Shown: positions 1 to 18,478, numbered from the whole stretch's first letter. The stretch: 55,483 nt of DNA, filler included, from Circinaria calcarea (GCA_051942165.1; 3 parts of 3 records of this genome joined end to end with filler, not necessarily neighbours in it), one strand, 5' to 3'. A program made the numbers and translations. The notes: generated from the letters alone by a model not told the origin.

Positions 1-1090
1 TGTTGGGGAGGGAGTGGAGGCAGAGGAAGGGGGCGGTGGGAATGGAGAAAACGGAAGAAACTGTAATGCGGGTCGTCGAGGAGGTGAAGGCGAAAGACAA
101 CGATGCCGGCTTGGAGGATGTGGCGCGGAAGCTGAACTGCATGGACCTGAGCGCAGAGCAGTGAAGTTTATGGCAGGGGTTCATGTGGTACCTATCGTGC
201 TTTTGCTTTTCTCTCCAGCCGAAAGATTTCGGTCAACGATAGTGCGCTTCTCGGGGTCTGTCTAGGAAGCGGGGGAAGAATACCGCCAAGCCAAAAACAT
301 GTCTGTCGTCCCTCCATACAGCCCTACACGGCCGCTCTCTGTTTCTGTTTTTTTCTCGGCCGGTTAGCTCAAGGGCTAGAGACTGGAAGATGAACATTTT
401 CTTCATCATCCTGCCGAATTCTATATCAAAACACCCATCCTCATCTCCAAATGTGTGGTTCCCTTCCCCCCTCTCCCTTGTATGCCCCGTGTTCCAAGTA
501 GAAACCACCCGCATTGTTGCAACGAACATTCATGGGGAGGAGTCTTCCCAACCACTGAAACATACAGTACATTGTGAGTCGATATCGAACTCCAAATCCA
601 AGCCATCGAAAGAAAGGAGGCGCTGGTTCGATGCAAAAAGGGAGAAGCCCAAGGGAGAAGAATTAAAGGGGTCGGGGGGAATGAATGGAATGGGATCTGT
701 GGCCCGATAACAAAGACATTTAGATATCCAACCTCCCTCCCTCAGCCGAGTCCCGAACCCTTGGGTAACTCGGTAGGGGAGTCGCGATCAAAGCACACCC
801 AAGGCCATGGGTGATATCCGACGCCTGGTGCGGAGGTGGATATCTCCTCGTCTACGATATTGAAGTTATTGAATGCCAGAAGCAGTACTGTACACGTGGA
901 GCAACCTAGAGGGTATCGGATACAAAAGATGTGGAACCGATCATGTTACAAACATCTGCCTAAATACAAGTCTATTCCGAATTCCAACAAACCAACGAAA
1001 CCCTTGACCGTATTAGTGCCGACTTTTCCCACTGCCTCTCCGCAATTGCACACACTTCCAAAAGCTACAGGAAAATGAGCGCTAAAGGCT

Positions 1091-2946
1091 TCACAGCAAA
1101 ACCATACCCGCACCGACCAGCGCTGCCATGACAACATAGAACCCCAGACTCAGCAGGCCGAAGTCGAAGCTCGGAACGGTGACCATGCCCGCGGCCCCGG
1201 TGGTCGTAGTAGCAGCCGAACCGCCGCTGACGCCGCCGGTTCCGCTGGGTTGAGAGGTAACGGTGCCGGTGCCGGCAGCTCCTCCGGCCTGACTGACTAG
1301 GGCATTACACTGGGTGGGAGCTGACGGAGATTGTGTTGTGGCGTTGCCGCCGAAGTCGCACGCGTTAGTATTAGCAGTGTTACTACGTGCTTGTTCTTCA
1401 TAGTACGCATTGAAAGCCCAAGAGAGCTGGTCTGCGGCCTGGCATCCCGAGTAGGCCCCGAAAGCTCCCGTGGTACCGTTGTTGGCAATCCCTGCACACA
1501 CGTTGTTTCCATTCGCTGGATCACACGCGGCGGCAAATAGCGCCGGGATGGCATCGGCGTCGATATTTGATCTCGCAACGCAAGTAAGGTTCTGGACCAT
1601 GCAGCTGCAAAGCTGCTGGTTCGGTGTAGGCGGGATGGCCGAAGCGGCAGACCAGGTTGAGCCAGTTGTGGGGCATGCTTGGGCAGCCGTATTACTGGGT
1701 GAGTACGCAGACATCTGAACGCCACTCGGGGTGACCTTGGCAATCTGGGTGGATAGCGCGGTGAAGTCTGGCAGCTTGCTCGCAGAGTTTCCACTGAGCG
1801 ATACAAGACCTTGCTGCGAGTGAGAATCGGGATTGGAACATGCAGGCTATCTTGCTTACCATAATTTCTCTCTGCTTGGAAGTATTCGTAGACAATTCCA
1901 CCAGACCAAACACCTGTCATTTGCGTGCTGAACAAGGCAATGGTCTCGTCCCAGACCCGCGGCGAGGGCTGATTACAGCCATACTCAGCAAAGAAGGCCG
2001 GGATGTTGTAGCTAGCAAACTCTCTGGTCCTATCGGCATAACCCGACTCCTCGAATGATGAATCAGATCCACACCACGAATAGATATTGTAACCGAAGAA
2101 ATCAATGCTGTCAGAAGCTGGGCCGCAATTTAGATAGGCTTTCAGGTCATCTCGAATGGCAGCGTCGTCATCGGCAGCATACCCAACACCAATCGCCCTA
2201 TAGTTTCTCCGGCTAATGTATGATTTCATGTCCCGGACCGCAGCCTTGACGAATGGAATGGCATCAACATTGGTGACATTATTGGACACCTCATTCCCAG
2301 CAAAGAATCCCAGAACGTTGTTGTAAGGCGCCAGGACGTCTATCACACTCGTATATCGACTATAGAGATCCACGTTCCACGAAGGGGTGTCTCGATTGAT
2401 TGAGATGTTCGGTGCTGACAGATCGGCAACGACGTATATACCGGCATCTTGAAGCATCCGCATGCATGGCTCGTGGTCTTTGGTTGGGTCGATGGCGTAT
2501 ACGCGTATGGTGTTCGTCCGAATCTGTTGAAGAAGAGGGATGTCACGGGTGCATCCGGCAACATCGGTCAATGGATCCACGAAATTGACATTCGCGCTCG
2601 ATGTACCATTGCCACCCACATCCTCTGGTTCTTGTCAGAAAGCAGGAGTGAGGTCGGAAAATGATATACTAACGCTGGTACGCAACCCCTCTGATGAAGC
2701 TGCGGAGGAGTCAGGACAAGAACGAGACGACGATAGGATGAACGATGGAACACTCACAATTCCGTGCCATTCGTCTTGTAGAAGAACTTTGAGCCCTAAG
2801 GTTTCTCTTGTGAGTATCGGTGTATCTGTCGCCAATATGCTGCGAGAACTGACTTTGATTACAATCGGATCCACGTCAGCCAGTACGGAAGAGAAAAAGA
2901 CCGAGGCGGCCGCAACGAGCGTCGAGGTGATACTAAGACTCCTCAT
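1091..2946 (-). CDS. GPI-anchored 1,3-beta-glucanosyltransferase, GH72 (Gas/Gel/Phr family) with Cys-rich X8/CBM43 domain
   Basis: Exons 2946-2854, 2795-2758, 2699-2674, 2624-1860, 1809-1091 join in frame via GT-AG introns. Signal peptide [25 protein letters not shown]72 motifs [27 protein letters not shown] (acid/base) and FFAEYGCN (nucleophile); Cys-rich domain, Ser/Thr/Gly tail and hydrophobic C-terminal GPI signal. Confidence 0.96.
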
Positions 2947-5264
2947 CTTGATGGGAGAGCTGGTGTGTAAGGAGGGTTGACGATGGCGCGGTGTGTTGCG
3001 CAAAGTGGAAGGATGTTGACACTGGCGCCAAGACCTTGAAAGCTAGAAGTCGTTGGTTGAGCTTCGATCAAAACGTAAAGGAGAGATGCAGATGGAAGCG
3101 AAAGTGGAGGATGGCAGCTACGAGGGAAAGGGGAAAGGGGAAAGTGGTGCTGGAAAGGGAAGGCGTTGAGGATTGACAAGCAGAGTGATGGCTTTTCCCC
3201 CGCGTGCCTGAGAATGAAATGAAATGCGGCTTGACTCGACAGCACAGATTATTATTATTATTAGGAATTCTTCAAACTTTAGGGGATGCTGGTCCGTGCC
3301 CCCAATCGTGCCCATGGAAGCAACGACAACCCGTTCCGGCGTCCGTTGCCCCTCAATGGCGAAGGACACGCAAGCTCGCGGTCGCGGCAGAAACGTGTCT
3401 CTCCACCCACTTTCCATTCTCTTGTTGCGACGAGCCTATTCTACATTTGCAGCGTCGGTCTAGATATTTTGGAGCTTAACAGGCCAGGTACGAGTTCCCA
3501 TCACGATTCGGTGGAGGGAAGCAAGTAGATGTACTGCATATTCTCGGTCACCATGATGTCAAAGTGGTTTCTTGATGGTTGTTCGGTGACACCGCCGCGT
3601 AATGCATTAAGGCATCCGTGTCCGGTCATGGCATGCACCCGTTATTCCTACCTACGGTGTATTTGATAACCGTAAATTACGGCAGCAAGTACATGCAATT
3701 GTTCGCAAAGGCAGATGGAGAGTTGGTATCTAGTACAGTAGTCGATCACCAAGCACACTGTGGTCGAGTTGAGTTGAAAAAGGATGCCTATATGGGTAGT
3801 AATACTCCGTCATGCTCATGTTAATTTCAAACGAAAATCTTCCGACGATGGTTCATTAGAGTCTCATCTGACTATGGCGATCGTTTGATCCAGGTATCTC
3901 GGGCCAAACCCGCATGCGGATGGTTTGCCACACTATTCTAGCCCTTCCCGTCTCAAGTGATGCTTGGTATGTTTTTCGCATAATGCTTACGGAAGTGAAA
4001 GCTTAGGTATGCTTCAAAGCACTGCCAAGAATACGTACCTGATGCAAGCTCGAGCGTGATTTTGGCTGTGCTGATCAGCAGCATATGGTCGATCATCTGT
4101 AGTCGGAGGAAAAGATATTCAAGAATAGCAACAACGGGCAGACAGAAATGAGTGGCGGCAAGGTGCGGTAGATCTGTCATTTATCCGGGTCAACCGTGGT
4201 CCCTATCTAGGTAGTGTTGAAAGAAAACGTTGATCATGCATGGGGGTGGTCGGCCTGATTTCGGTGGCCACAACCTCACCTCATAGTACTGATCGGCCAA
4301 TTTGGTTTATTTTTACACACCTAGACATTCCGGTGTGATGTACCGTACGGAAAAGCTCCATTCGCGTCGACTTTAGGTGCTTGGGCAGGTGGACACTGGG
4401 CAGAGAAATAAAACGCGGCTACTGTAGAGGTTTAGAGGGAAGCCACGTGAAGCAACTGACGATAAGAAGGCGCCTGGCTGGGTTCCAATTCATAAGGCAC
4501 TGAGTACGAGTGAAATCTATCGTCCATCGCGACTCCCGTTTGAACCATAACAAACGCAAGATAGTGTCCACACCCGTCCTGGCCACCACGACGGGGAAGG
4601 CGCAACGTATTTTCTGACCCTGGCGAATCAGCGTGGGCCAATTCATTCCATTCATCCCCCGGCGGAGCCAGTAGGATTGAGTTGGTCCCATCACTAGTCT
4701 GTATCAGGCTACCTCCGTTCTGGCCGGCGCTCTCGCTTCCCCTTTCTTGGATGAAGTCCTTCCAACTCCTCGCTTTTCACCTTCGACTTCTCATCTCCCA
4801 CGACATCCTCTTTCCCATCCTCACGTTCGTTACTTTGCCTCTTCACCTCAATCCATCAGCTCGATCTCGGTGCTGGTAATAGGTTTCACTCGCTGGAGGC
4901 TACCTGGGACGGCCAGTGCAGAGCGGGTGATAGGGTGCGGCAATCCAAAGGTCAAGGCGAGAAAGCCGGGTAGCTCGAGCAACCGCGCACTCGTTTGCTA
5001 TTCCTCTTTCCACTCTCGTTCCAAACCACCCAACAACCGCCGACTAAGCCGCCCTGACCATCACAATCCTCAAGGACGACACCTATTACTCCACCATCCA
5101 CTCAAGCAACTCCAGACATATTCCAAGGCTCGATCGGTTCGATTGCATTTGCCGTTCGCCCTTTTCGCTTGCACAGGCGCGCCGGCGACATTTTTATTCG
5201 CGTCATCACCGAACCGACCGTTTTCCCGCTTTCCACACCACAACCAGTAGACCGATTCTGGTGG

Positions 5265-5276
5265 ATGGATAAGTAA
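5265..5276 (+). promoter_or_regulatory. Candidate 3-codon uORF (ATG GAT AAG TAA) in the FKS1 leader, followed by a candidate 5'-UTR intron at 5279-5367
   Basis: ATGGATAAGTAA at 5265-5276, GTTAGT donor at 5279, CCTAAC branch point at 5350-5355, CAG acceptor at 5365-5367. Transcription start is unknown. Confidence 0.45.
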
Positions 5277-5446
5277 AAGTTAGTCATACCCATTCAGCTC
5301 ACTGTCGTCCAAAGATCTTCATTGCAGTGCGGGAGACGTTCTCTACGTACCTAACGCGACGTCTCAGGGTGCTTGTTAAAGTCTTTCTGAAGGCTGTCGA
5401 AACTTACGTTTGAAGAGTCATTAGAAGCTCCCAAGCATCCCTCATC

Positions 5447-8400
5447 ATGTCGGCTCACCCCCAAGGAGGGCATTACGAAGAGGGCTACGGCCAGCATCCC
5501 CAAGGGACGGACTCGTACTATCAGGATGAGCACAACCAGGGCTATTACGATCAGCATCAAGAGTACCAGCAACCCCAGCACGGCGGAGACGGCTACTACG
5601 ACGAATCGTAAGTATATACATGATAGTACGCTTTGCACGTTGCTGATCTGGAACAGTGGATACTACAATGCAGACGCGAATAATCCCTACCAGCAAGATG
5701 GAGGATATTATGAGGGCCAACACCCACAGGGCTATCAAGATGAATACTACAATGACCAATACTATGACCAAGGTGCTCCCGCTGCGGGTCAACAACCAGC
5801 ATATGGAAATAATGAGTACGCTGGAATAGAACTCATTCATTGATAGAGTTCCATGCTAACTGGTTGTAGTGCGAGGCCTAGGCGGCGAGGTCATGATCCC
5901 GAAGAGGACTCCGAAACTTTCAGTGACTTTACCATGAGATCTGACATGGCTCGTGCCGCTGAGATGGATTACTACGGCCGCGGCGACGAGCGATACAACA
6001 GCTACAACGAGGGACAAAATGGCCGAGCCTACAGGCCACCCTCGTCGCAGATCTCTTACGGAGGAAATCGATCATCCGGAGCATCGACTCCCGTCTATGG
6101 CATGGACTATGGCAATGTTCTTCCAGCTGGACAACGGTCAAGAGAGCCTTACCCTGCCTGGACATCTGACGCTCAGATTCCCCTCTCCAAAGAAGAGGTT
6201 GAAGATATCTTCCTGGATCTTACTGCGAAATTTGGATTCCAGCGAGACAGTATGAGGAACATGTACGATCACTTCATGACTCTGCTTGACTCCCGTGCAT
6301 CGCGTATGACACCAAATCAAGCCCTCCTTTCACTTCATGCCGATTACATTGGCGGTGACAATGCGAACTACCGGAGGTGGTATTTTGCCGCCCATCTTGA
6401 CCTCGATGACGCTGTCGGTTTTGCAAATATGAAGCTCGGAAAGGCCAACAGGAGAACTCGTAAGGCTCGTCGAGCTGCGAAGAAGAACCAAACAGTTACC
6501 CAAAACGAGGATCAAACACTCGAAAACCTTGAGGGTGACAATAGCCTTGAAGCTGCAGAGTATCGATGGAAATCTCGTATGAACCGTATGTCTCAGCACG
6601 ATCGAGTACGGCAAATAGCACTCTACCTTCTTTGCTGGGGAGAGGCAAATCAGGTCCGTTTCATGCCTGAATGTCTCTGTTTCATCTTCAAATGCGCATA
6701 TGACTACCTGATGTCCCCCGAGGGACAGAATAGAGTGGAACCTGTTGAAGAATTCACTTACCTAAATAATGTGATTACACCACTCTACCAGTATTTCCGG
6801 GATCAAGGCTTCGAGATCTCCGAAGGGAAGTATGTACGCCGAGAAAGAGACCACAGCAGTACTATTGGGTATGACGACATCAACCAGCTGTTTTGGTATC
6901 CAGAAGGAATCGAGCGGATAATCATGGAGGACAAGTCCAGAATTGTTGATATACCCCTTGCGCAGAGGTATCTAAAACTCAAGGACGTCGATTGGAAGAA
7001 AGTTTTCTTCAAAACTTACAAAGAATCACGATCCTGGTTTCACATGTTAATCAACTTTAACCGCATCTGGGTTATTCACGTCACAACCTTTTGGTTTTAT
7101 ACAGCCTTCAATTCTCCCACCTTCTACACTCCAAATTATCAACAGCAAATCGACAATAAACCGAGACCCGCCGCACAGTGGTCAGCGGTTGCTCTTGGAG
7201 GTACTATTGCTTCGCTAATTATGATTGGCGCAACACTTGCTGAATGGGCTTACGTTCCTCGGCGTTGGGCAGGAGCTCAACATCTTACCACGCGTCTTTT
7301 CTTCCTCTTGGCCGTCTTTGTGATCAACGTTGCTCCCAGCGTCTATATCTTTGGTGTTAAGGGCGGCCAAGGGAAAATTGGACATATTCTCGGGGTAGTC
7401 CAATTCTTTGTTGCGCTGGCTACGATGTTCTTTTTTGTCATCATGCCAATTGGTGGACTGTTCGGAAGCTATTTGACGAAGAACTCCCGTCGATACGTCG
7501 CCAGTCAAACATTCACAGCTAGCTGGCCTCGTCTCCAAGGAAACGACAAGTGGATGTCATACGGCCTGTGGGTATTAGTCTTTGCACTTAAGCTCATCGA
7601 GTCATATTTCTTCTTGACGCTATCAATCAGGGACCCTATTAGGATCTTGTCGACCATGAGGATCCGGAATTGTGTTGGCGATCAAATCCTCAAGCAGTAC
7701 CTCTGCAAGTATCAGCCTCAGATCCTACTGGGTGTGATGATTGTCGTCGACCTCTTGCTGTTCTTTCTCGACACATACCTCTGGTACATCATCTGGAATA
7801 CCGTGTTTTCAGTGGCGCGCTCTTTTTACCTCGGTGTTTCGATCTGGACTCCATGGAGAAATATCTTCTCCCGACTACCAAAACGCATATACTCGAAGGT
7901 CCTCGCCACAACCGACATGGAGATCAAGTACAAACCCAAGGTCCTGATATCGCAGATTTGGAATGCGATTGTGATTTCCATGTACAGAGAACATCTTCTA
8001 GCGATCGATCATGTCCAGAAGTTGCTCTATCACCAGGTTCCATCAGAGCAAGAGGGTAAAAGGACTCTGCGTGCCCCGACTTTTTTCGTATCTCAGGAGG
8101 ACCACTCTTTCAAGACCGAGTTTTTCCCAGTACAGAGTGAAGCGGAGCGCCGTATCTCTTTCTTTGCTCAGTCTCTGTCTACGCCCATTCCTGAGCCACT
8201 ACCAGTTGATAATATGCCAACGTTTACTGTCCTGATCCCTCACTACGGGGAGAAGATTTTGCTATCTCTCCGAGAAATCATTCGTGAGGATGAACCATAC
8301 TCTCGTGTTACCCTCTTGGAATATTTGAAACAATTGCATCCTCACGAGTGGGACTGTTTTGTTAAGGACACAAAGATCCTTGCAGACGAAACTTCTCAAT

Positions 8401-11359
8401 TCAACGGCGATTACGAGAAGAACGAGAAAGATACCGCCAAAAGCAAGATTGACGATCTTCCATTTTACTGCATTGGGTTCAAGTCTGCCGCTCCGGAGTA
8501 CACCTTACGTACCAGAATTTGGGCTTCTCTCCGCTCGCAGACGCTCTATCGTACCATCTCAGGATTTATGAATTACAGCCGTGCAATTAAACTACTCTAC
8601 CGTGTCGAGAATCCCGAGGTCGTGCAGATGTTTGGTGGAAACTCTGATAAGTTGGAACGTGAACTCGAGCGCATGGCTCGTCGTAAATTTAAGATAGTCG
8701 TTTCGATGCAGCGGTACGCGAAGTTCAACAAAGAAGAACGAGAAAATACTGAATTCTTACTTCGTGCATATCCTGATTTGCAAATCGCTTACCTGGATGA
8801 GGAGCCACCAATCAACGAAGGGGAAGAACCTCGTATATATTCGGCTCTGATCGATGGCCACTCAGAAATCATGGAAAATAGCATGCGCAGACCCAAATTC
8901 CGCGTTCAGCTCTCTGGGAACCCTATACTTGGTGACGGAAAATCGGACAATCAAAATCATTCAATAATCTTCTACCGTGGCGAATACATCCAGCTCATCG
9001 ATGCAAATCAAGACAACTACCTCGAAGAGTGTCTTAAGATTCGCAGTGTCCTTGCGGAATTTGAAGAGATGACAACGGACAACATTTCGCCCTATACACC
9101 CGGGCTTCCTCCTGTCAAAACCAACCCTGTGGCAATTTTGGGTGCTCGCGAATACATCTTCTCGGAGAATATCGGTATCCTTGGCGATGTTGCTGCTGGA
9201 AAGGAGCAAACATTTGGAACCTTGTTTGCGCGAACCCTTGCACAAATTGGCGGAAAGCTCCATTATGGACATCCCGACTTCCTCAATGGTATCTTCATGA
9301 CTACGCGTGGTGGCGTCTCCAAAGCACAGAAGGGTCTGCATCTGAACGAAGATATCTATGCGGGGATGAACGCATTGCTCCGTGGTGGTCGTATCAAACA
9401 TTGCGAGTATTACCAGTGCGGCAAGGGTCGTGACCTCGGTTTTGGATCTATCCTCAACTTCACCACGAAGATTGGTACTGGTATGGGCGAGCAAATGCTC
9501 TCTCGTGAATATTACTATCTCGGGACTCAACTTCCTTTGGACCGGTTCTTGTCTTTCTACTACGCTCACCCCGGTTTCCATATCAACAACCTTTTCATCA
9601 TTCTCGCCGTTCAGTTGCTGCTATTGACACTCATCCACCTGGGGGCACTCCGCCACGAAACAATCCTCTGCTTCTACAATAGGAATGCACCAATCACTGA
9701 TCCCTTGAAGCCTACTGGGTGCGCTAATCTGGCACCAATCCTTGACTGGGTTTTTCGCTCAGTGCTCTCCGTCTTTATCGTGTTCTTCATTGCCTTTGTT
9801 CCTTTGGTCGTACAGGAATTGACCGAGAGAGGCTTTTGGCGCGCCGCGACTCGATTGGGAAAACACTTTGCCTCTTTCTCGCCGCTCTTCGAAGTCTTCG
9901 TCTGCCAAATCTACGCCAATTCTTTACATCAAGATTTGTCCTTTGGTGGTGCACGCTATATTGGCACCGGCCGTGGGTTCGCGACTGCTCGTATCCCGTT
10001 CGGTGTATTATATTCGCGATTTGCAGGACCGTCAATATATCTCGGAGCACGACTGGTGATGATGCTGCTCTTTGCAACCCTTACAATTTGGGGAGTGGAG
10101 CTACTCTACTTCTGGGTTTCCCTGCTCGCATTTTGCGTTTCCCCCTTCCTTTTCAATCCGCATCAATTTGCCTGGAACGATTTCTTCATCGATTACCGTG
10201 ACTACTTGAGATGGTTGTCTCGTGGCAACTCTCGGTCGCACGCCTCGTCTTGGATAGCATTCTGTCGATTGTCCAGAACTCGGATCACCGGATACAAACG
10301 CAAGGCGATTGGGGAACCGTCTTCGAAGCTCTCTGGTGATGTGCCGCGTGCTCACTTTACCAACCTTTTCTTCAGCGAGGTTATCGGCCCGCTGATCTAC
10401 GTGGCATTAACCATCATACCGTATCTTTACATCAATGCCCAAACCGGAGTCACGCCAGAGGATAATAGAGGCAAAAAAATAGAACCTACAAACTCTCTTA
10501 TCCGAGTTGCCGCTGTCGCCTTTGCACCAATAGCTATCAACGCCGGTGTACTACTGGGGTTCTTTGCCATGGCTTGCTGCATGGGTCCACTTTTAAGCAT
10601 GTGTTGCAAAAAATTCGGCAGTGTCTTGGCCGCTATAGCTCATGGGATATCAGTGGTAATGATGCTTGCCTTTTTTGAGGTTATGTTTTTCCTCGAAGGA
10701 TTCAACTTCGCCAAAGCTCTTCTCGGGATGATAGCTGTTGTGGCCTTGCAGCGCTTCATCTTCAAGTTATTGATAGCACTTGCACTCACCCGTGAATTCA
10801 AGACAGATTCATCGAATATAGCTTGGTGGACCGGCAAGTGGTACAACATGGGTTGGCACTCCATGTCTCAACCGGGGCGAGAATTCGTGTGCAAGATCAC
10901 CGAACTTGGCTTTTTTGCGGGTGACTTCATTCTCGGGCATATTCTCCTCTTCGTTATGTTACCCGTGCTCGTTATTCCATACATCGACAAGTTCCACTCT
11001 GTTATGCTCTTCTGGCTACGTCCAAGGTACGTTCGCGCCACACCCTTTAATGATTATGCTAATACATATACAGCCGGCAAATCCGACCCCCCATTTACTC
11101 TTTGAAGCAATCAAAGCTTCGAAAAAGAAGAGTCATTCGCTCCGCAATGCTTTACTTCTTGATGCTCATAATTTTCGTGGCGTTGATTGCAGGGCCCTTG
11201 GTTGCGGGCAAATACGTTCCAAATATCTCGATACCACTCAATCTTCAGCAGCCTACCGGATTGAACAACAACGACACATTCACCAGTGTTACAGGGAGTG
11301 CTCTAAACGGTCTTGGAGGAAAAGGAACTGCTGCTGCTACAAGATCATCTTCTTCGTAA
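5447..11359 (+). CDS. FKS1: 1,3-beta-glucan synthase catalytic subunit (GT48), about 1920 aa
   Basis: Exons 5447-5607, 5657-5815, 5870-11026, 11074-11359. Tyr/Gln-rich N-terminus; signature motifs [74 protein letters not shown]; many TM helices. Confidence 0.99.
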
Positions 11360-12028
11360 GCGTTGGAGAATCATGATTAGTATCCTGGCGGTGGCGATAC
11401 ATAATGTACAGATACTATGATCGAAATAGACGAGCATGTCGCCACATATGGCCGACGTCTAATGGTTAGCGACCAAACACGCCATGGTCTCAGTCTTTTG
11501 TCGCGGTTTGCCACACGGTGTATGGATTAGACACAGGCATGGCTATGCATGGTTTTGTTGGTAACCTAGCACACTGTTCTCGTTGAGCCAAGCACGCATT
11601 GTGCCGCGTTTGGGAGTTGTCTTTTCACGCCTCTTGTTTCTGGCTTTAAGGCGTGCACACGTAGGGATTTCAGTTAGTCATCCTGTATGTATGTTGTGGG
11701 CAACTGAATAAATAGTCCATTCATATTATCAGAAGCTGCTGTGCAAGCATGGCCTTTTCGCTTTCACGAGCAAGCAATGGTTACAGGCCTGCCATCCAGG
11801 ATTTCCCGGCATCTTGACGTTAGCTGTAGTTGACGTCCAGAGATCCCTTCGATACAAAGGATGCCTGTAACTCTGTGGTCAGAACCTAAAACGGTGAACA
11901 TTACAGCCTTCGTAAATCATTTGTGTAGCAATTCTGGTGTTGCCGCGTCCCTTTGTCACTAGATGGTCAACCAATCACACGTCTCGTAAAAATATGGGCC
12001 AAATTCCCGACTCGTTCAACATTATACC

Positions 12029-12037
12029 ATGGCATAA
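12029..12037 (+). promoter_or_regulatory. Minimal uORF ATG-GCA-TAA whose stop overlaps the LCB1 start (TAATG)
   Basis: ACC ATG GCA TAA TG at 12026-12039. The upstream ATG is in a strong ACCATGG context and out of frame with LCB1. Confidence 0.55.
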
Positions 12038-13796
12038 TGGACCTTCAGGATATCCAACTTTTGTCTTTCAGGGTCGGGGATCGCTTGTCGGAAGTCTTCC
12101 AAAAAGTGCCTGGCTCTTCGATTGCATTGCGGTATATCAAGTCGAGTTACCAGGACGATCCGGTGCGTTCTGTTATCGAACTGTTTCTCTGCATTTTCGC
12201 TGTCAGATATCTATTGGCGCCAGCATATTCGACCCAGAAAAAAAGCTACGTGAAACTCACAGACGAGGTGCGATTCTCCGAGACGACTGTCCATATATTG
12301 CCTTGCTTACCCTTTATAGGAGGTCGATGAGCTTGTCGAGGACTGGACCCCGGAACCACTCGTCGCGCGACAAACTGCATTCGAGGAGGCCGAGAACGAG
12401 AAACAGCCTGTGATTGCCGGGTGAGTGGAAGACGAGGTGACTGCATCGGAAAAGGGAAAGGGACTGACGTTGCCACAGACCTACCGGTCCCAAGTCGAAG
12501 CTCATCAATGGGCGGACAGTCACCAATCTCGCCTCCTACAACTACTTCAACCTCATCGCCAATGAGACCCTCAAAGAAAAGGCTATACAGACACTACGAA
12601 CGTATGGCGTGGGTCCGTGTGGACCTCCGGGCTTTTATGGCACCCAAGATGTTCATATGAAAACGGAAGCGGACATTGCCGCGCACCTCGGCGTTCCCGC
12701 ATGCATCCTCTATGCCCAGGCGTTTTCGACCATCTCTAGCGTCATACCTGCTTTCTCCAAGAGGGGGGACATCATCGTTGCAGACAAGTCAGTCAACTAC
12801 GCCATTCGCAAGGGGATCCAGATCTCCCGGAGTACGGTGAGGTGGTATGAACATAATGACTTGGAGGATATGGAGAGAGTGCTGCAGAAGGTTATCAAAG
12901 AGCAAGCTAAGAAGCCCTTAATGAGGAGATTTATTGTTACGGAAGGCCTATTCGAGGATGTCGGAGACATGCTTGATCTCCCAAAAATCGTGAGGCTTAG
13001 TCACTTCCACCGTGTAGGGAGCGAGAAATACTGATTATGGACGCAGATCGAACTGAAACTCCGGTATAAATTCCGTCTCATTCTCGATGAGACCTGGTCC
13101 TTTGGAGTGCTCGGGCGGAGCGGTCGAGGTATCACGGAGCATCAAAATGTCGATGCTGCGGAAGTCGACATGATTGTCGGATCTCTGGCGGGTCCAATCT
13201 GCGCAGGCGGCGGATTTTGTGCAGGCTCAGATGAGATTGTGGAGCATCAGAGGCTATCATCGGCTTCGTACACATTCTCCGCTGCGCTGCCCGCGATGCT
13301 AGCCACCACCGCCAGCGAGACCCTCATCATGTTACAGACCACCCCCGATATCTTGACACAGGCAAGGGAGAACACCAAGACCATGTGGGCACAATTAGAT
13401 CCTCGGAGTGACTGGGTCTACTGCACGAGCTCTGTGGAGAATCCGATGATGATTTTGGTTCTGAAGCCAGAGGTCGTCGCAATTAAGAAGCTGAGTCTCC
13501 AGGATCAAGAACAGCTACTACAAGACGCTGTAGATGAGGTGAGAAGGCTCTACCTAGTCTCCCGGGCCCTCAGGTTCACTGACTCGGTTCCATCATAGTC
13601 TCTTGCCAACGGCGTGCTCATCACCCGGTTGAAGAGCATGCCCCGGGCCGTCAATGCCAAGGATACCGGATGGGAGGCCAAGACGCAGCCGGCCCTCAAG
13701 GTCTGCATCACCAGCGGGCTATCGAAGAAAGAGGTGGAGCGGGCGGGGATCACCATCAGACATGCTATTACCAAGGTAGTGAACCGGAGAAAGTAA
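12037..13796 (+). CDS. LCB1: Serine palmitoyltransferase subunit 1 (long-chain base biosynthesis), about 510 aa
   Basis: Exons 12037-12267, 12320-12420, 12479-12989, 13047-13538, 13599-13796. Motifs YIKSSYQDDPVRS, DWTPEPLV, YGVGPCGPPGFYGTQDVH, IPAFSKRGD, YTFSAALP match the AOS-family LCB1 subunit. Confidence 0.96.
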
Positions 13797-14648
13797 TCCG
13801 GGGAGCGGAGTGTCTGTTGTACGATAGTCGGCAATGTAAATACTACGGAATGATGCCATGCGTCTGATATAATGCCTCTTTGGGACGCCCATCCATGTAA
13901 GGCCATCAGGGGGAGCGTCATCCAACGGTTTTCTGGCCCGGGCTTTTGTCTCCTGCTTGAGTGGCTTTACGAGAAAGACAGGCGGATGCTAGAGGCTATT
14001 TCCCCCAAGAATCGGGCTTGCCTCGCTACGAGATGGCCTATGGTCAATATCCTGCGGCGAGTATCCATCATGACCGTGACTTCCGAGTAGGAGCAACGAC
14101 TGGGCAGCCATCACCGTTGGACCGTCGCTCCCTGAGAGATGGAGCACATTATACAGAGTAAGCTGTTGGAAACCTTAAGACAACGCGGTTGCATGCTGCT
14201 TGTCATCAACGGTCAACCAATGCAATTTCAAGGATCCGGTCTGGGCGGGCGCGTACGTGGCATGTTGGGGTTTAGGATCCGTGTCGTCCGGAACAAGTGA
14301 ATGGGTGGGAAAGGATGAAACGGTAAGGGTGAGCGGTAAATACCGGATCGCTAGACTACCTTATGCGGCATCGGCACTGTAGCAATCACACCTCATTTCG
14401 GTGTGGTACTACGGTAAACGTGGCGAGGATGAGTTCCCACCTCGCGCTTGACGGGCAAGGATTGCATTGGCTCTTTCTTTGCCTGTGCCTGTTGTACCTG
14501 ATCGGCGTGGCCATGGCTTGGTGGGCTTCCCCTGAATCTAACCGCTTTCAGCGCTGGGCCGGCCAGGATCTCGTCATGGGTTGAGGGAGCCCCTCGGACA
14601 AACATGCCGTAGCGCGTGCAGTTGTGGATCAGCCAATCTCGTCGGCGG

Positions 14649-14680
14649 TAGGGACTAGGGACTAGGGACTAGGAATAGGG
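14649..14680 (+). repeat. (TAGGGAC)3 tandem heptamer with a fourth GGG tract; G-quadruplex-compatible
   Basis: TAGGGACTAGGGACTAGGGACTAGGAATAGGG read directly from the sequence. Confidence 0.8.
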
Positions 14681-15338
14681 TGGCATTTTGCTTCCCTCTG
14701 CTGTCCATTCCTTTCCTTCCCCTCCTCCTCCTCTCCTCCTTCTTTCACCATATCACTGTCGAAGACCCCGACTGCCAATATCAGTATCTACTGACCGTCG
14801 CTGAACGCGCTCACCCCACATTCCTTTCAGAATCAGACATAAATAAACCCTCGCTTGTTCGCGCCACCTTTTAGCCGACAGTCCCTCCCAGTTTCATCTA
14901 CCACGAGGCCACAGCAGCAACAACATCCACTCTTTTCTGTACTCGACATTCGATCCGAGCGATCGTGCTGGTTCATAGCACCCCTGCAGAGGCAGCGGCA
15001 GCATTCACGCAATTGCATTGTTTGGATATCGACAAAGCGGTCCTTTGAAAGGCCCTACCCCGTATTCGTGACTGGAAGTCATTCATTGATCGCTGCTGTC
15101 ACCTCAAAGCGCTGCACACATGTACGTGGCAGTCATTGTTCGATTTCTCCGAGAGCCACAGGCACCTGTCTTCTACTGCGGAATTCCTCGATGAAATTGC
15201 CTTCTCCCCTCCGTCGTAATCATATCAAGTTATACGACACTTTGCTAACACCGCTGGACGGTCCCAGACAGTCTCTACAGAAACCAAAATCGTCATCACG
15301 GCATCAAGAAATCCCTGTAAATCACCTATCACAACAGA

Positions 15339-16697
15339 ATGAGGGCTGGATTCTTCTCTATCGCTGCCGCGGTGCTACTGCAGTTAGCCGTTGCGCAACC
15401 TCACGGTAAGGCGTTCACCCTATCTTCTATTCTCGGCACTGACGCGCTCTTAGCAATTCGACACCGTCATCATCGCAGGCAAGATGTGGTCGTTACTCAC
15501 TTTGAGGTTGTCACGGTCGAGGCTTCGGAAGTGATTGTATACGTCAACCAAAATGGTGAACCAATTTCGACCACCACTATTGTTGGTAACCAGGCCACAC
15601 CTACAGCAATTCCTTCCACACCGTCCTTGTCCACTCCTGTACCGTCGATTGCATCGGCGACATCAACTTCCACTCCTGCCCCTCCTCTACCGCCTGCGCC
15701 AGCGCAATCGTCCTCCTCCCTACCCCCTCCAGCTGTCCCTACTACTCCTGCAACTTCTCCCTCTGCACAGCCACCCCCAGAATCATCTCCGTCTCCGCCA
15801 ACCGTGCCACCTCCGGCCCCGTCTCCTTCCCCGGTGACATCCACCCCGGCTACGCCTGCATCCTCAGCAGCGCCGGTTCAGTCCGACGCACCGTCATCTC
15901 CTCACGGGCCTGGGTTCAGGTCGGCCATCTCATACTCTCCTTACAATCCGGACCAGACCTGTAAATTACCAGCACAGGTTGCCAAGGATCTTGAGCAGAT
16001 TGAGAGCTTCTCGGTTGTTCGCCTCTATGGTACCGATTGCAATCAAACTGCCAACGTGCTCGCAGCCACTCAAGGCAAAAACGTGCAAATCTTCGCCGGA
16101 TTCTTCGATATTAACGATATCCCCAATCAAGTCCAACTTCTCTCGAGTGCTGTCGGCGGTGATTGGAGTCGTGTTAATACTGTCAGTGTTGGTAACGAGC
16201 TAGTTAACAATGGCGCCGCGTCTGCCGGCAGTGTTATTGCCGCGATGGATCAGGCCAGAGGGCTCCTCAAAACAGCAGGCTACTCGGGGCCAGTTGTCAC
16301 GGTCGATACCATGGTCGCGATGAAGGCTAATATCGAACTTTGCCACGCTTCGGATTACTGTGCCATCAACTGCCATGCATTTTTTGACCCGCATGTTTCT
16401 GCGGAAGGAGCAGCTGACTTTGTACTCGGTTGGGCACAGGAAATCTCGAGTTTGGCTGGAGGGAAGACAACGGTCATTACGGAAACTGGGTGGCCAAGCT
16501 CAGGCGAATCTCACCACAATGCTGTTCCCTCGAAAGAAAACCAAGATATGGTGGTCTCGGCTTTGAAATCGAAGTTCTCGAGTAATATGATTTTATTCTC
16601 TGCTTACAACAACAAGTGGAGGCACGACAGCTCGGGAACGTTTGGCGCGGAGAAGTTCTGGGGAATTCTAGGGGATGCGCCTAGCGAGTCTGGTTAG
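15339..16697 (+). CDS. Secreted GH17 cell-wall beta-1,3-glucanase/glucanosyltransferase (Scw4/Scw11/BtgE-like)
   Basis: Signal peptide, HRHHRR basic site, long Pro/Ser/Thr linker, then a GH17 domain (ISYSPYN, VRLYGTDCNQ, VSVGNEL, ITETGWPS, EKFWGI). Probable 48-nt intron at 15406-15453 (GTAAGG..CACTGAC..TAG) and probable 5'-UTR intron at 15122-15267. Confidence 0.93.
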   Translation: MRAGFFSIAAAVLLQLAVAQPHGKAFTLSSILGTDALLAIRHRHHRRQDVVVTHFEVVTVEASEVIVYVNQNGEPISTTTIVGNQATPTAIPSTPSLSTPVPSIASATSTSTPAPPLPPAPAQSSSSLPPPAVPTTPATSPSAQPPPESSPSPPTVPPPAPSPSPVTSTPATPASSAAPVQSDAPSSPHGPGFRSAISYSPYNPDQTCKLPAQVAKDLEQIESFSVVRLYGTDCNQTANVLAATQGKNVQIFAGFFDINDIPNQVQLLSSAVGGDWSRVNTVSVGNELVNNGAASAGSVIAAMDQARGLLKTAGYSGPVVTVDTMVAMKANIELCHASDYCAINCHAFFDPHVSAEGAADFVLGWAQEISSLAGGKTTVITETGWPSSGESHHNAVPSKENQDMVVSALKSKFSSNMILFSAYNNKWRHDSSGTFGAEKFWGILGDAPSESG

Positions 16698-18165
16698 GGC
16701 TGCCATCACATTCCCAGCAGGAGTAGAAAAATGGATATTTGTTTTCCCCTCATGGCTTTATGGATGCACACAGTCTGCCATTGTTCATTCTCCTTCTACG
16801 CGCGTGATTGTTGTTGATGCGGCATGGGTGTAATGCTCCGGAAAGATCGAATTTGATGTGGTGATCGGTAATGATGTTTCTTTCCGCACGATTGTATCCT
16901 TTTGCTTCTCAACTTGCTCTCGAGATGAAGATGTGGATCTTGAATACCGAGGGGATTTATGGAGCGGGTTGATGGATTGGATTATCTTTCCCCGTACATA
17001 GTCTCCTACTTGTTTGTTTGGCTAGGATCGCCTTGTAGGTGATGGGAGAACATGGGCAATGAAATGTTTTCCGTCGGATATTTGAACCGGACCATAATTG
17101 GTGATGTGTGAAATGTAATGTGCTTCGTACTCAGGATGGAGGGAAGAGTTCTTGGTGTGCAAACCAGTGTTGTGCCGGTATGAAAGTCCATCCCTCCTGC
17201 AAGACGAGCCATTCTCTCCGACGATTCGTAACTTGCCGGGTGTTGAAGGTTAGCGTCCGACCAGAGGGCGGTCTGGTGCAGAGGACGAGAAGAGAAGCGA
17301 AGAGAAAGGAGAGCAAGAGGCTCTCAGAAGGGTAGAAGGTGTCTCTGGCGGCGAACGTTTCAAAGGAGCAGACCCGATCCCACCACCCCGGGTTTAGGGG
17401 CCAGGATCCATAAATCGGAGGAAAAATTGGGCAGCAGGGGGATCGACCAAGGGGTTTCCGTTGGACGTTCGTCCCCTGGGGTGGAGGTGAACCAGTGGAG
17501 TCGGGTATCTATGAGTCGTTCCGGCCGCTTGGGCGTGGAGAAAGGAAAATAGTGGGGAAATCGGGCTGGATCGCGGAATTGGAGATGTCGTTTGATGGTT
17601 TGAGTGGGGGATAGGGTGGAGGGGGTTCTCTTTGACGGTCGAGAGGGGAATGAGAGTGAAAGGGGGTTGGGTGGAGGAGGTATGACTTTGCGTTGGGTGG
17701 CGGTTGGGGGAAGGAGAATCTTGGGAGGGTTGAAGTATAGGGACGCGGTATATTTTGATTTCCTAGGATCTGCCGGATATGCACGCCGTCACCTTGTTCA
17801 TCATGAACCGGCCACACTAGGTGACTCTCGCAGTGTCTTTCGATCATTAATTGATGCGTGAGTGATTGGGTTTAGCTGTATTGTAGGACTTCATCTGCAA
17901 TGGGCAGGTTATGGAAGGCTGATTTCTCGTGATCGTTCCTGTCTGAGAAGTTTAGCTCAAGATCTTGATTTGGGGTCTTTGAACTAATCAGTGTCATAGA
18001 CATGTTCTTGGAAAGCACGATTCCACTCATGAATATGGTTGCTTTCACAAGATCAGTCGTATTCGCAGGCTGTGTCCCGTGAACCCCCAATCATGAAACT
18101 TTATACCCTCAGTCCCTATATTTACATCTCTAAACAGGTAATCAAAAAGCATGTATTCCACTGTC

Positions 18166-18478
<313 letters not shown>

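What the first reader, a model, noticed from the sequence alone, without database searches (positions are those of the whole stretch)
1091..16697. Four-gene beta-1,3-glucan cell-wall cluster with an embedded sphingolipid gene (GH72 <- -> FKS1 -> LCB1 -> GH17)
Seen: four consecutive genes on one gap-free segment with nothing else between them. Established: Fks1 synthesises beta-1,3-glucan, GH72 enzymes elongate and branch it, GH17 Scw/Bgl2-type enzymes remodel it, and Lcb1 is part of the first committed step of long-chain-base synthesis. Long-chain bases are reported to modulate glucan synthase activity and echinocandin sensitivity. Inference: this is a selected primary-metabolism cluster coupling polymer synthesis, remodelling and the lipid environment of the synthase. 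From memory (unverified), Aspergillus has the same gel-fks-lcbA-scw order, so the synteny may be ancient and partly noted before; the functional role of LCB1 in it is the under-explored part.
Basis: partly seen in the sequence, partly recalled or inferred. Interest (0 to 1): 0.78.

Follow-up and report, generated by a model that had tools for sequence, protein, structure and literature searches.

The report
Ancient fungal glucan-synthase gene neighbourhood
In this lichen-type fungus the gene that makes the main cell-wall glucan sits head-to-head with a glucan-remodelling gene and next to a sphingolipid gene, an order kept across filamentous ascomycetes, but the sphingolipid gene looks like a long-term passenger rather than a working part of a cell-wall cluster.

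Summary
The four genes are real, intact and adjacent. The same order occurs in Aspergillus fumigatus and across Pezizomycotina. Among species-level groups with enough flank, GH72 is linked to FKS1 in 19 of 20, LCB1 in 15 of 17, GH17 in only 8 of 14. The control weakens the four-gene reading: unrelated neighbours are kept about as well (SprT-like 11 of 16, MOG1 10 of 15). The FKS1|LCB1 junction has 2 independent breaks, as many as SprT/MOG1|GH72; LCB1|GH17 has 6. The three wall genes share Ssd1-type CNYTCNYT motifs upstream of their start codons; LCB1 does not. In A. nidulans fksA and gelC fall about 30-40-fold in conidia while the two loci in the LCB1 and GH17 positions rise. Best reading: an old, slowly rearranging block whose functional core is the divergent GH72-FKS1 pair; LCB1 is held by a short gap, and GH17 is the loosest member. 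Ten literature searches found no paper describing this block. It resembles the known chsD chitin-synthase cluster. No genome-wide background rate could be measured.

The parts
1091..2946 (-). GH72 beta-1,3-glucanosyltransferase with X8/CBM43 domain (Gel/Gas type), 546 aa, signal peptide and GPI-type tail; introns 1810-1859, 2625-2673, 2700-2757, 2796-2853
   Evidence: Pfam; model (AGNE and AEYGC kept); RNA joints; same position as A. fumigatus AFUB_078410
2947..5446 (.). 2.5 kb divergent region shared by GH72 and FKS1; holds both leaders and an FKS1 leader intron at 5279-5427
   Evidence: coordinates; joint 5278-5428 GT..AG in 4 of 4 runs
2969..3163 (-). five CNYTCNYT (Ssd1-type) motifs upstream of the GH72 start codon
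   Evidence: conserved enrichment
4312..4320 (-). TAAAAATAA, one-letter variant of the TAAAAATAG element found at a similar distance in relatives (MADS/RlmA-type label recalled)
   Evidence: TA[AT]4TAG in 12 of 22 lineages, 2.1 expected, maximum 6 in shuffles; the window's own exact match (near 3255) lies in a TTA repeat
4824..5020 (+). four CNYTCNYT motifs upstream of the FKS1 start codon (a fifth at 5337 lies in the leader intron)
   Evidence: RNA contigs cover 4814-5278
5447..11359 (+). FKS1 beta-1,3-glucan synthase (GT48), only copy found; introns 5608-5656, 5816-5869 (or 5875), 11027-11073
   Evidence: one match in G000
12037..13796 (+). LCB1, non-catalytic subunit of serine palmitoyltransferase, only copy found; 677 nt after the FKS1 stop; four introns
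   Evidence: GPCGPPGFYG, DETWS, GSLAG without lysine; next best match 28% identity
14706..15087 (+). seven CNYTCNYT motifs upstream of the GH17 start codon, including the conserved CACATTCCTT at about 14817; leader intron 15114-15267 (GC..AG)
   Evidence: joint
15339..16697 (+). GH17 Scw4-type secreted glucanase/transglycosylase, 436 aa, Pro/Ser/Thr linker, both catalytic Glu motifs (GNE, ETGWP); intron 15406-15453
   Evidence: position of A. fumigatus scw4
3..164 (+). 3' end of the SprT-like gene, the conserved non-wall neighbour of GH72; the rest lies on G000:C603 with MOG1 and BUD20-like genes
   Evidence: the link between the two contigs is inferred, there is no sequence overlap

Best explanation
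An ancestral Pezizomycotina gene block, BUD20-like - MOG1 - SprT-like - GH72 <> FKS1 > LCB1 > GH17 - LDB17 - GH47, that rearranges slowly. Its functional core is the head-to-head GH72-FKS1 pair: one upstream region drives the synthase and the GPI-anchored enzyme that elongates its product, so they switch together in large developmental transitions (shown: linkage, co-movement in two A. nidulans data sets; inferred: shared elements as the cause). The GH72, FKS1 and GH17 mRNAs are probably all under Ssd1 translational control (shown: conserved motifs and an SSD1 gene; inferred: binding), which works in trans and needs no linkage. LCB1 stays because it starts about 0.6 kb after the FKS1 stop, so few breakpoints can fall there without damaging one of two single-copy genes (gap shown; near-essentiality recalled; mechanism inferred). 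GH17 is an old member but the most easily lost.
For: GH72|FKS1 has the widest gap (median about 2.5 kb ATG to ATG) and the fewest breaks, 1 among 36 informative loci; FKS1|LCB1 has the narrowest of the three gaps (median 620 nt, 21 lineages) and 2 breaks among 36, the same count as the non-wall junction SprT/MOG1|GH72 (2 among 32); LCB1|GH17 has 6 among 26. Linkage by species-level group: GH72 19 of 20, LCB1 15 of 17, SprT 11 of 16, MOG1 10 of 15, GH17 8 of 14, LDB17 7 of 13, GH47 5 of 13. A. nidulans conidia vs hyphae log2: AN3729 fksA -4.91, AN3730 gelC -5.35, AN3728 +0.53, AN3727 +1.37. vosA deletion: fksA 5.01x and gelC 2.73x, both VosA-occupied; AN3727 and AN3728 not found in the supplement. 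CNYTCNYT sense counts against 40-nt local shuffles: GH72 78 vs 29.1 (rank 1 of 1350 letter permutations), FKS1 154 vs 57.1 (rank 1), GH17 41 vs 15.3 (rank 5), LCB1 17 vs 11.3 (rank 202), mid-promoter control 13 vs 16.4. SSD1 orthologue in G000.
Against: Break counts are small (1, 2, 2, 2, 6), so GH72|FKS1 is not statistically separated from FKS1|LCB1. Two of the six LCB1|GH17 breaks are repeat-like blocks in single assemblies whose conspecifics keep GH17. In Dothideomycete-like lineages both flanks turned over while LCB1 stayed, so LCB1 is a tighter partner than GH17. The pair is not always co-regulated: in the A. fumigatus meaB deletion the GH72 falls (log2 -1.36) and fksP rises slightly (+0.38). 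AN3731, beyond gelC, also falls in conidia (-2.75), which allows a domain-wide effect. The names of AN3727 and AN3728 are inferred from gene order and recall. The motif test was prompted by k-mers seen in the same data, used offset-defined regions, and lineages are not independent.
Confidence: 0.58

Rival explanations
1. Selected cluster that includes LCB1: linkage keeps long-chain-base supply matched to glucan synthase through shared chromatin or co-inheritance of compatible alleles.
For: LCB1 follows FKS1 in 15 of 17 groups, including Dothideomycete-like lineages that lost both flanks, and in merged gene models of Aspergillus, Penicillium, Patellaria, Phaeosphaeriaceae, Chaetothyriales and Hirsutella. 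Dihydro- and phytosphingosine shift the caspofungin IC50 of A. fumigatus glucan synthase by at least 1 and 4 logs (PMC6550521 section 10); myriocin partly restores susceptibility in a C. glabrata fen1 mutant (PMC12521646 passages).
Against: No co-movement; no shared motif among those tested; breaks in L034, L083 and Xylaria (gelsolin upstream of LCB1); the non-wall junction breaks as rarely; only one SPT subunit is here, the LCB2-like match lies on contig C468; no myriocin synergy in wild-type cells.
Confidence: 0.17
2. No selection on any linkage: the whole nine-gene block is a rearrangement cold spot rich in conserved genes, and the wall genes are together by ancestry alone.
For: SprT-like, MOG1, LDB17 and GH47 genes are co-retained across classes; losses per unit tree length for SprT/MOG1|GH72 (0.96) and FKS1|LCB1 (0.83) are close; the shared Ssd1 motif acts on mRNA and needs no clustering; GH72 is absent from 10 kb upstream of FKS1 in L036.
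Against: Three enzymes acting on one polymer within four consecutive genes is unlikely by chance; the widest junction is the best kept; fksA and gelC share VosA occupancy and direction of change. Recalled, not tested here: FKS genes also adjoin GAS and SCW genes in budding and fission yeast (one search confirms only GAS1=YMR307W and FKS1=YLR342W).
Confidence: 0.22
3. FKS1 and LCB1 are linked because a read-through or spliced transcript makes a fused Fks1-Lcb1 protein.
For: Nine public gene models fuse them: six and three more.
Against: Junction sequences differ among the eight models compared, apart from two related Chaetothyriales strains; one model also swallows a third gene (P0122); LCB1 is likewise merged with GH17, Gaa1, gelsolin or telomerase elsewhere; spliced RNA contigs run through the FKS1 stop to 11555 and 11694, and no FKS1-to-LCB1 joint is among the 15 joints listed (17 not shown).
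Confidence: 0.03

Closest known systems
Class IV chitin synthase (chsD) cell-wall gene cluster of Aspergillus and other Pezizomycotina (PMC4141765, PMC4964407; passages read)
   Same: A wall-polymer synthase head-to-head with a functional partner, a GH17 nearby, several unrelated conserved neighbours, conservation across classes, partial co-expression.
   Different: Different polymer and locus: glucan synthase with GH72 and the Scw4-type GH17, against chsD with its activator, myosin V and the Scw11-type GH17. Neither paper's searched passages describe the FKS1 block.
A. fumigatus A1163 AFUB_078410 / 078400 fksP / 078390 lcbA / 078380 scw4 (supplement rows of PMC10900910); A. nidulans AN3730 gelC / AN3729 fksA
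   Same: Orthologous locus with the same order and orientation.
   Different: The genes are annotated and studied singly; I found no text that treats them as a conserved block.
Ssd1 regulon of cell-wall mRNAs (PMC8934651; passages read)
   Same: Several CNYUCNYU copies upstream of the start codons; SCW4 is a named yeast target; motif enriched in A. fumigatus wall genes.
   Different: FKS1 and GAS1 are not named in that paper's main text (0 occurrences); binding was not tested here.
Fungal metabolic gene clusters (galactose, GAG, secondary metabolites; recalled except the GAG cluster mention)
   Same: Neighbouring genes acting on one product.
   Different: No cluster-specific regulator, no joint four-gene expression, housekeeping single-copy genes, members lost one at a time.

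Membership tests
GH72 (Gel/Gas, GH72+) | GH72 domain with two catalytic Glu, X8 domain, signal peptide and GPI tail | tested here: met
   signal and GPI tail read by eye from the translation
GT48 Fks1 | FKS1_dom1, FKS1_dom2 and Glucan_synthase domains in one intact frame | tested here: met
   83-89% identity to 19 aligned homologues
LCB1/SPTLC1 | closer to LCB1 than LCB2; no PLP-binding lysine | tested here: met
   GSLAG at 325-330 (the lysine position is recalled)
GH17 Scw4 group | GH17 domain with both Glu, secreted, no GPI tail, orthologous position to scw4 | tested here: met
   no GH17 tree was built
selected metabolic gene cluster (four genes) | linkage conserved across distant taxa | tested here: met
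   strong for GH72-FKS1-LCB1, partial for GH17
selected metabolic gene cluster (four genes) | members kept better than unrelated flanking genes | tested here: not met
   GH17 worse than SprT-like and MOG1; FKS1|LCB1 equal to SprT/MOG1|GH72; small counts
selected metabolic gene cluster (four genes) | co-expression of all members | tested here: not met
   three published contrasts; stress series not seen
selected metabolic gene cluster (four genes) | linkage above the genome-wide background | not testable with these tools
selected metabolic gene cluster (four genes) | fitness cost of relocation | not testable with these tools
   needs bench work
co-regulated divergent gene pair (GH72-FKS1) | conserved head-to-head layout and shared regulation | tested here: inconclusive
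   layout 19 of 20; co-movement, not
Ssd1 target mRNAs | two or more CNYUCNYU upstream of the start codon, sense strand | tested here: met
   GH72 21 of 22, FKS1 28 of 28, GH17 9 of 10 lineages; LCB1 4 of 21, within the shuffle range
Ssd1 target mRNAs | binding by Ssd1 in vivo | not testable with these tools
   needs CLIP/CRAC

The most novel reading that the evidence does not exclude
An undescribed glucan-synthase cluster, as old as Pezizomycotina or older, in which selection holds the first sphingolipid-synthesis subunit against FKS1 so that long-chain-base supply and synthase dose evolve and respond together, with Ssd1 co-controlling the three wall mRNAs.
Probability: 0.17. Interest if true: 0.72.

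Novelty: new member of a known kind. Interest (0 to 1): 0.4.

Why it matters
FKS1 is the echinocandin target and is heavily studied, yet I found no account that it sits in a block conserved across filamentous ascomycetes, head-to-head with a GH72. That has practical consequences: promoter swaps or deletions at fks1 can disturb the GH72 upstream or LCB1 0.6 kb downstream, and gene callers repeatedly fuse FKS1 with LCB1 in public annotations. Conserved Ssd1 motifs in FKS1 and GH72 leaders predict translational control of the synthase itself, which can be tested. If LCB1 linkage proved to be selected, it would tie genome layout to the known lipid control of the synthase.

Tried and rejected
Literature: ten searches returned no paper on this block, judged from listings and abstract starts; one search listed 40 of 67 and one search listed 25 of 62 hits; the library lacks most subscription journals. 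PMC2871058 main text and supplement 4 gave no FKS-GH72 or FKS-LCB1 pair under the terms used. PMC11381361 has no 'glucan' in its main text (supplements not seen). PMC2987803 gave no locus ids. Yeast, fission-yeast and Cryptococcus adjacency could not be verified. Supplements of the two bioRxiv preprints were not seen, and two supplement files were cut when stored. Motifs: CrzA, SCB, MCB, PacC and VosA-type patterns (all recalled) were not enriched in the divergent region; CGCGTC was mildly above shuffles (19 of 22, maximum 16). RNA: the stretch 3670-4777 has no cover in the four runs, which is no evidence of a promoter; contigs give no starts, strand or level; the runs held only 5-9% of the words and come from one study. 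The search of earlier findings gave nothing relevant. The first tree run did not finish; a FastTree tree was used, with weak deep support and no named Leotiomycete or Sordariomycete reference, so those class labels are inferred (L036 is supported). The fusion-protein idea was rejected (see rivals). No structure or complex prediction was run, since no binding claim is made.

Full report
Observation. The window is several contigs joined by N runs; bases 1-18478 are one contig. On it lie a GH72 with X8 domain (minus, 1091-2946), FKS1 (5447-11359), LCB1 (12037-13796) and a GH17 (15339-16697), all with open spliced frames and the expected domains. The aminotransferase-fold gene is LCB1, not LCB2. 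The GH17 keeps both glutamate motifs. One FKS1 and one LCB1 were found in the genome; GH72 and GH17 have paralogues on other contigs. RNA contigs from a close relative (pieces about 91-95% alike, four runs, one study) show joints at most of the predicted introns and at leader introns of FKS1 and GH17. By FKS1 similarity and tree the organism falls among Lecanoromycetes, near Xylographa.

Conservation. One metagenome scan with an FKS1 alignment found 395 confirmed stretches and kept the best 80, 78 loci, which form 51 groups at 97% identity. Many are short, so each count uses only groups with enough flank: GH72 divergent upstream in 19 of 20, LCB1 tandem downstream in 15 of 17, GH17 in 8 of 14 (a group counts as linked if any long-enough member is, so L057 without GH17 is masked by L059). 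A. fumigatus A1163 has the same order and orientation: GH72 plus 1825481-1827159, FksP minus 1814085-1819903, LcbA minus 1811211-1813502, Scw4 minus 1808800-1810041 (supplement rows of PMC10900910; scw4 id also in PMC5872321). A search for over-long LCB1 proteins returned 27 hits; of the 11 that look like filamentous ascomycete models, 6 are merged with FKS1, 2 with GH17, 2 with Gaa1 and 1 with gelsolin. This extends FKS1-LCB1 adjacency to Hypocreales and shows a likely break in Xylaria.

The control. All-against-all comparison of flanking ORFs, Pfam on 70 chosen ORFs and mapping show a larger block: BUD20-like, MOG1, SprT-like, GH72, FKS1, LCB1, GH17, LDB17, GH47. The non-wall genes are linked in 11 of 16 (SprT-like), 10 of 15 (MOG1), 7 of 13 (LDB17) and 5 of 13 (GH47) groups. 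The window itself begins with the 3' end of the SprT-like gene, whose body lies at the end of contig C603 with MOG1 and the BUD20-like gene (the join is inferred); LDB17 is on another contig and a 4Fe-4S gene follows GH17 instead. Independent losses on the FKS1 tree: SprT/MOG1|GH72 2 among 32 informative loci, GH72|FKS1 1 among 36, FKS1|LCB1 2 among 36, LCB1|GH17 6 among 26, GH17|LDB17 2 among 15. Two of the six are AT-rich or retroelement-bearing blocks in single assemblies, possibly insertions or chimeras. Gaps: about 2.5 kb, 0.62 kb and 1.4 kb (medians). So the widest junction is the best kept, the narrowest is kept like a non-wall junction, and GH17 is the loosest. The numbers are small and no genome-wide background was available.

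Regulation. In A. nidulans fksA is AN3729 and gelC AN3730; both rise in the vosA deletion and are VosA-occupied (PMC4426670 Table 1 and passages), while AN3727 and AN3728 were not found in its supplement. In conidia against hyphae fksA and gelC fall by log2 4.91 and 5.35, AN3728 and AN3727 rise by 0.53 and 1.37 (supplement rows of PMC10653911; their identity as lcbA and GH17 is inferred and recalled); AN3731 also falls. In the A. fumigatus meaB deletion only the GH72 changes clearly. A k-mer search turned up CTCTCGTT and CACATTCCTT at conserved distances; both fit the Ssd1 motif CNYUCNYU (PMC8934651 passages). The motif is sense-enriched before GH72, FKS1 and GH17 and not before LCB1, against antisense, Markov shuffles, local shuffles and 1350 letter permutations. 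The genome encodes an Ssd1 orthologue. A TA[AT]4TAG element occurs in 12 of 22 divergent regions against 2.1 expected, and in 2 of 21 regions before LCB1; it was one of nine patterns tried, is absent from the Dothideomycete-like loci, and its RlmA label is recalled.

Lipid link. It is real biochemistry: long-chain bases desensitise A. fumigatus glucan synthase to caspofungin in vitro (PMC6550521 abstract and section 10), and SPT inhibition partly reverses the fen1 phenotype in C. glabrata, with no synergy in wild type (PMC12521646 passages). This makes the neighbourhood suggestive but does not explain linkage: the lipid is diffusible, only one SPT subunit is here, and no shared regulation was seen.

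Fusion. Nine public models join FKS1 and LCB1. Their junctions vary, other neighbours get merged too, and spliced RNA contigs run through the FKS1 stop codon. These are most likely gene-calling merges.

Known systems and novelty. The nearest described case is the chsD cluster (PMC4141765 and PMC4964407, passages). Ten searches and targeted reading found no description of the FKS1 block in this library; I recall that the yeast FKS-GAS adjacency has been remarked on, which I could not check. Verdict: a real, ancient neighbourhood of a known kind, with a probably functional GH72-FKS1 core, a shared Ssd1 signature on the three wall genes, and LCB1 most likely a passenger. Interest 0.4.

Noticed in passing
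window 18150-18476, minus: 3' part of a 4Fe-4S protein gene, cut by the contig end; looks like complex I subunit NDUFS8 (label recalled). It takes the place of LDB17 and was found in none of the 78 loci.
   Followed up: partly
P0064, P0122, P0190, P0195, P0243, P0244, P0245, P0247, P0248: Public gene models that fuse FKS1 with LCB1; a recurring annotation error at a drug-target locus.
   Followed up: yes
L014 after about 17870; L054 after about 20010: Right after LCB1 these contigs diverge from conspecific loci into 23-28% GC, TpA-rich DNA (L014) or 34-40% GC DNA with a Tf2-type remnant (L054); insertion or misassembly.
   Followed up: partly
FKS1 3' region, about 380-490 nt after the long-exon match in relatives; window about 11405: Conserved TGTACA(A) element (TGTACAAA in 8 of 21 lineages, 0.5 expected; Puf-like label recalled) and extra CNYTCNYT copies (26 vs 8.3).
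   Followed up: partly
window 5265-5276: A three-codon upstream ORF just before the FKS1 leader intron, read; conservation not checked.
   Followed up: no
window 15114-15267: GC-AG intron in the GH17 leader, joint seen in 3 of 4 runs.
   Followed up: partly
L024, L028, L071 downstream of LCB1: A CDP-alcohol phosphatidyltransferase gene (CHO1-like, label recalled), another serine-using lipid enzyme, sits where GH17 usually is.
   Followed up: no
L036; L085; L034: L036 keeps MOG1-SprT-FKS1-LCB1 without GH72; L085 has the SprT-like gene moved downstream of LCB1; L034 keeps SprT-GH72-FKS1 without LCB1.
   Followed up: partly
window 3250-3264 and 14650-14677: Short TTA repeat and a GGGACTA tandem repeat in the intergenic regions.
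   Followed up: no
window 18579-55483 (other contigs): Ordinary genes: NUDIX-like, coiled-coil ORF at 24.1-26.9 kb, Ku subunit, DUF4149, patatin lipase, MFS transporter, diphthamide synthesis, SAICAR synthetase, Ppc89/Cep57. Not linked to the finding.
   Followed up: no
G000:C1123 about 4500-8000: SSD1 orthologue, best PDB match 7AM1 for two of three segments.
   Followed up: yes
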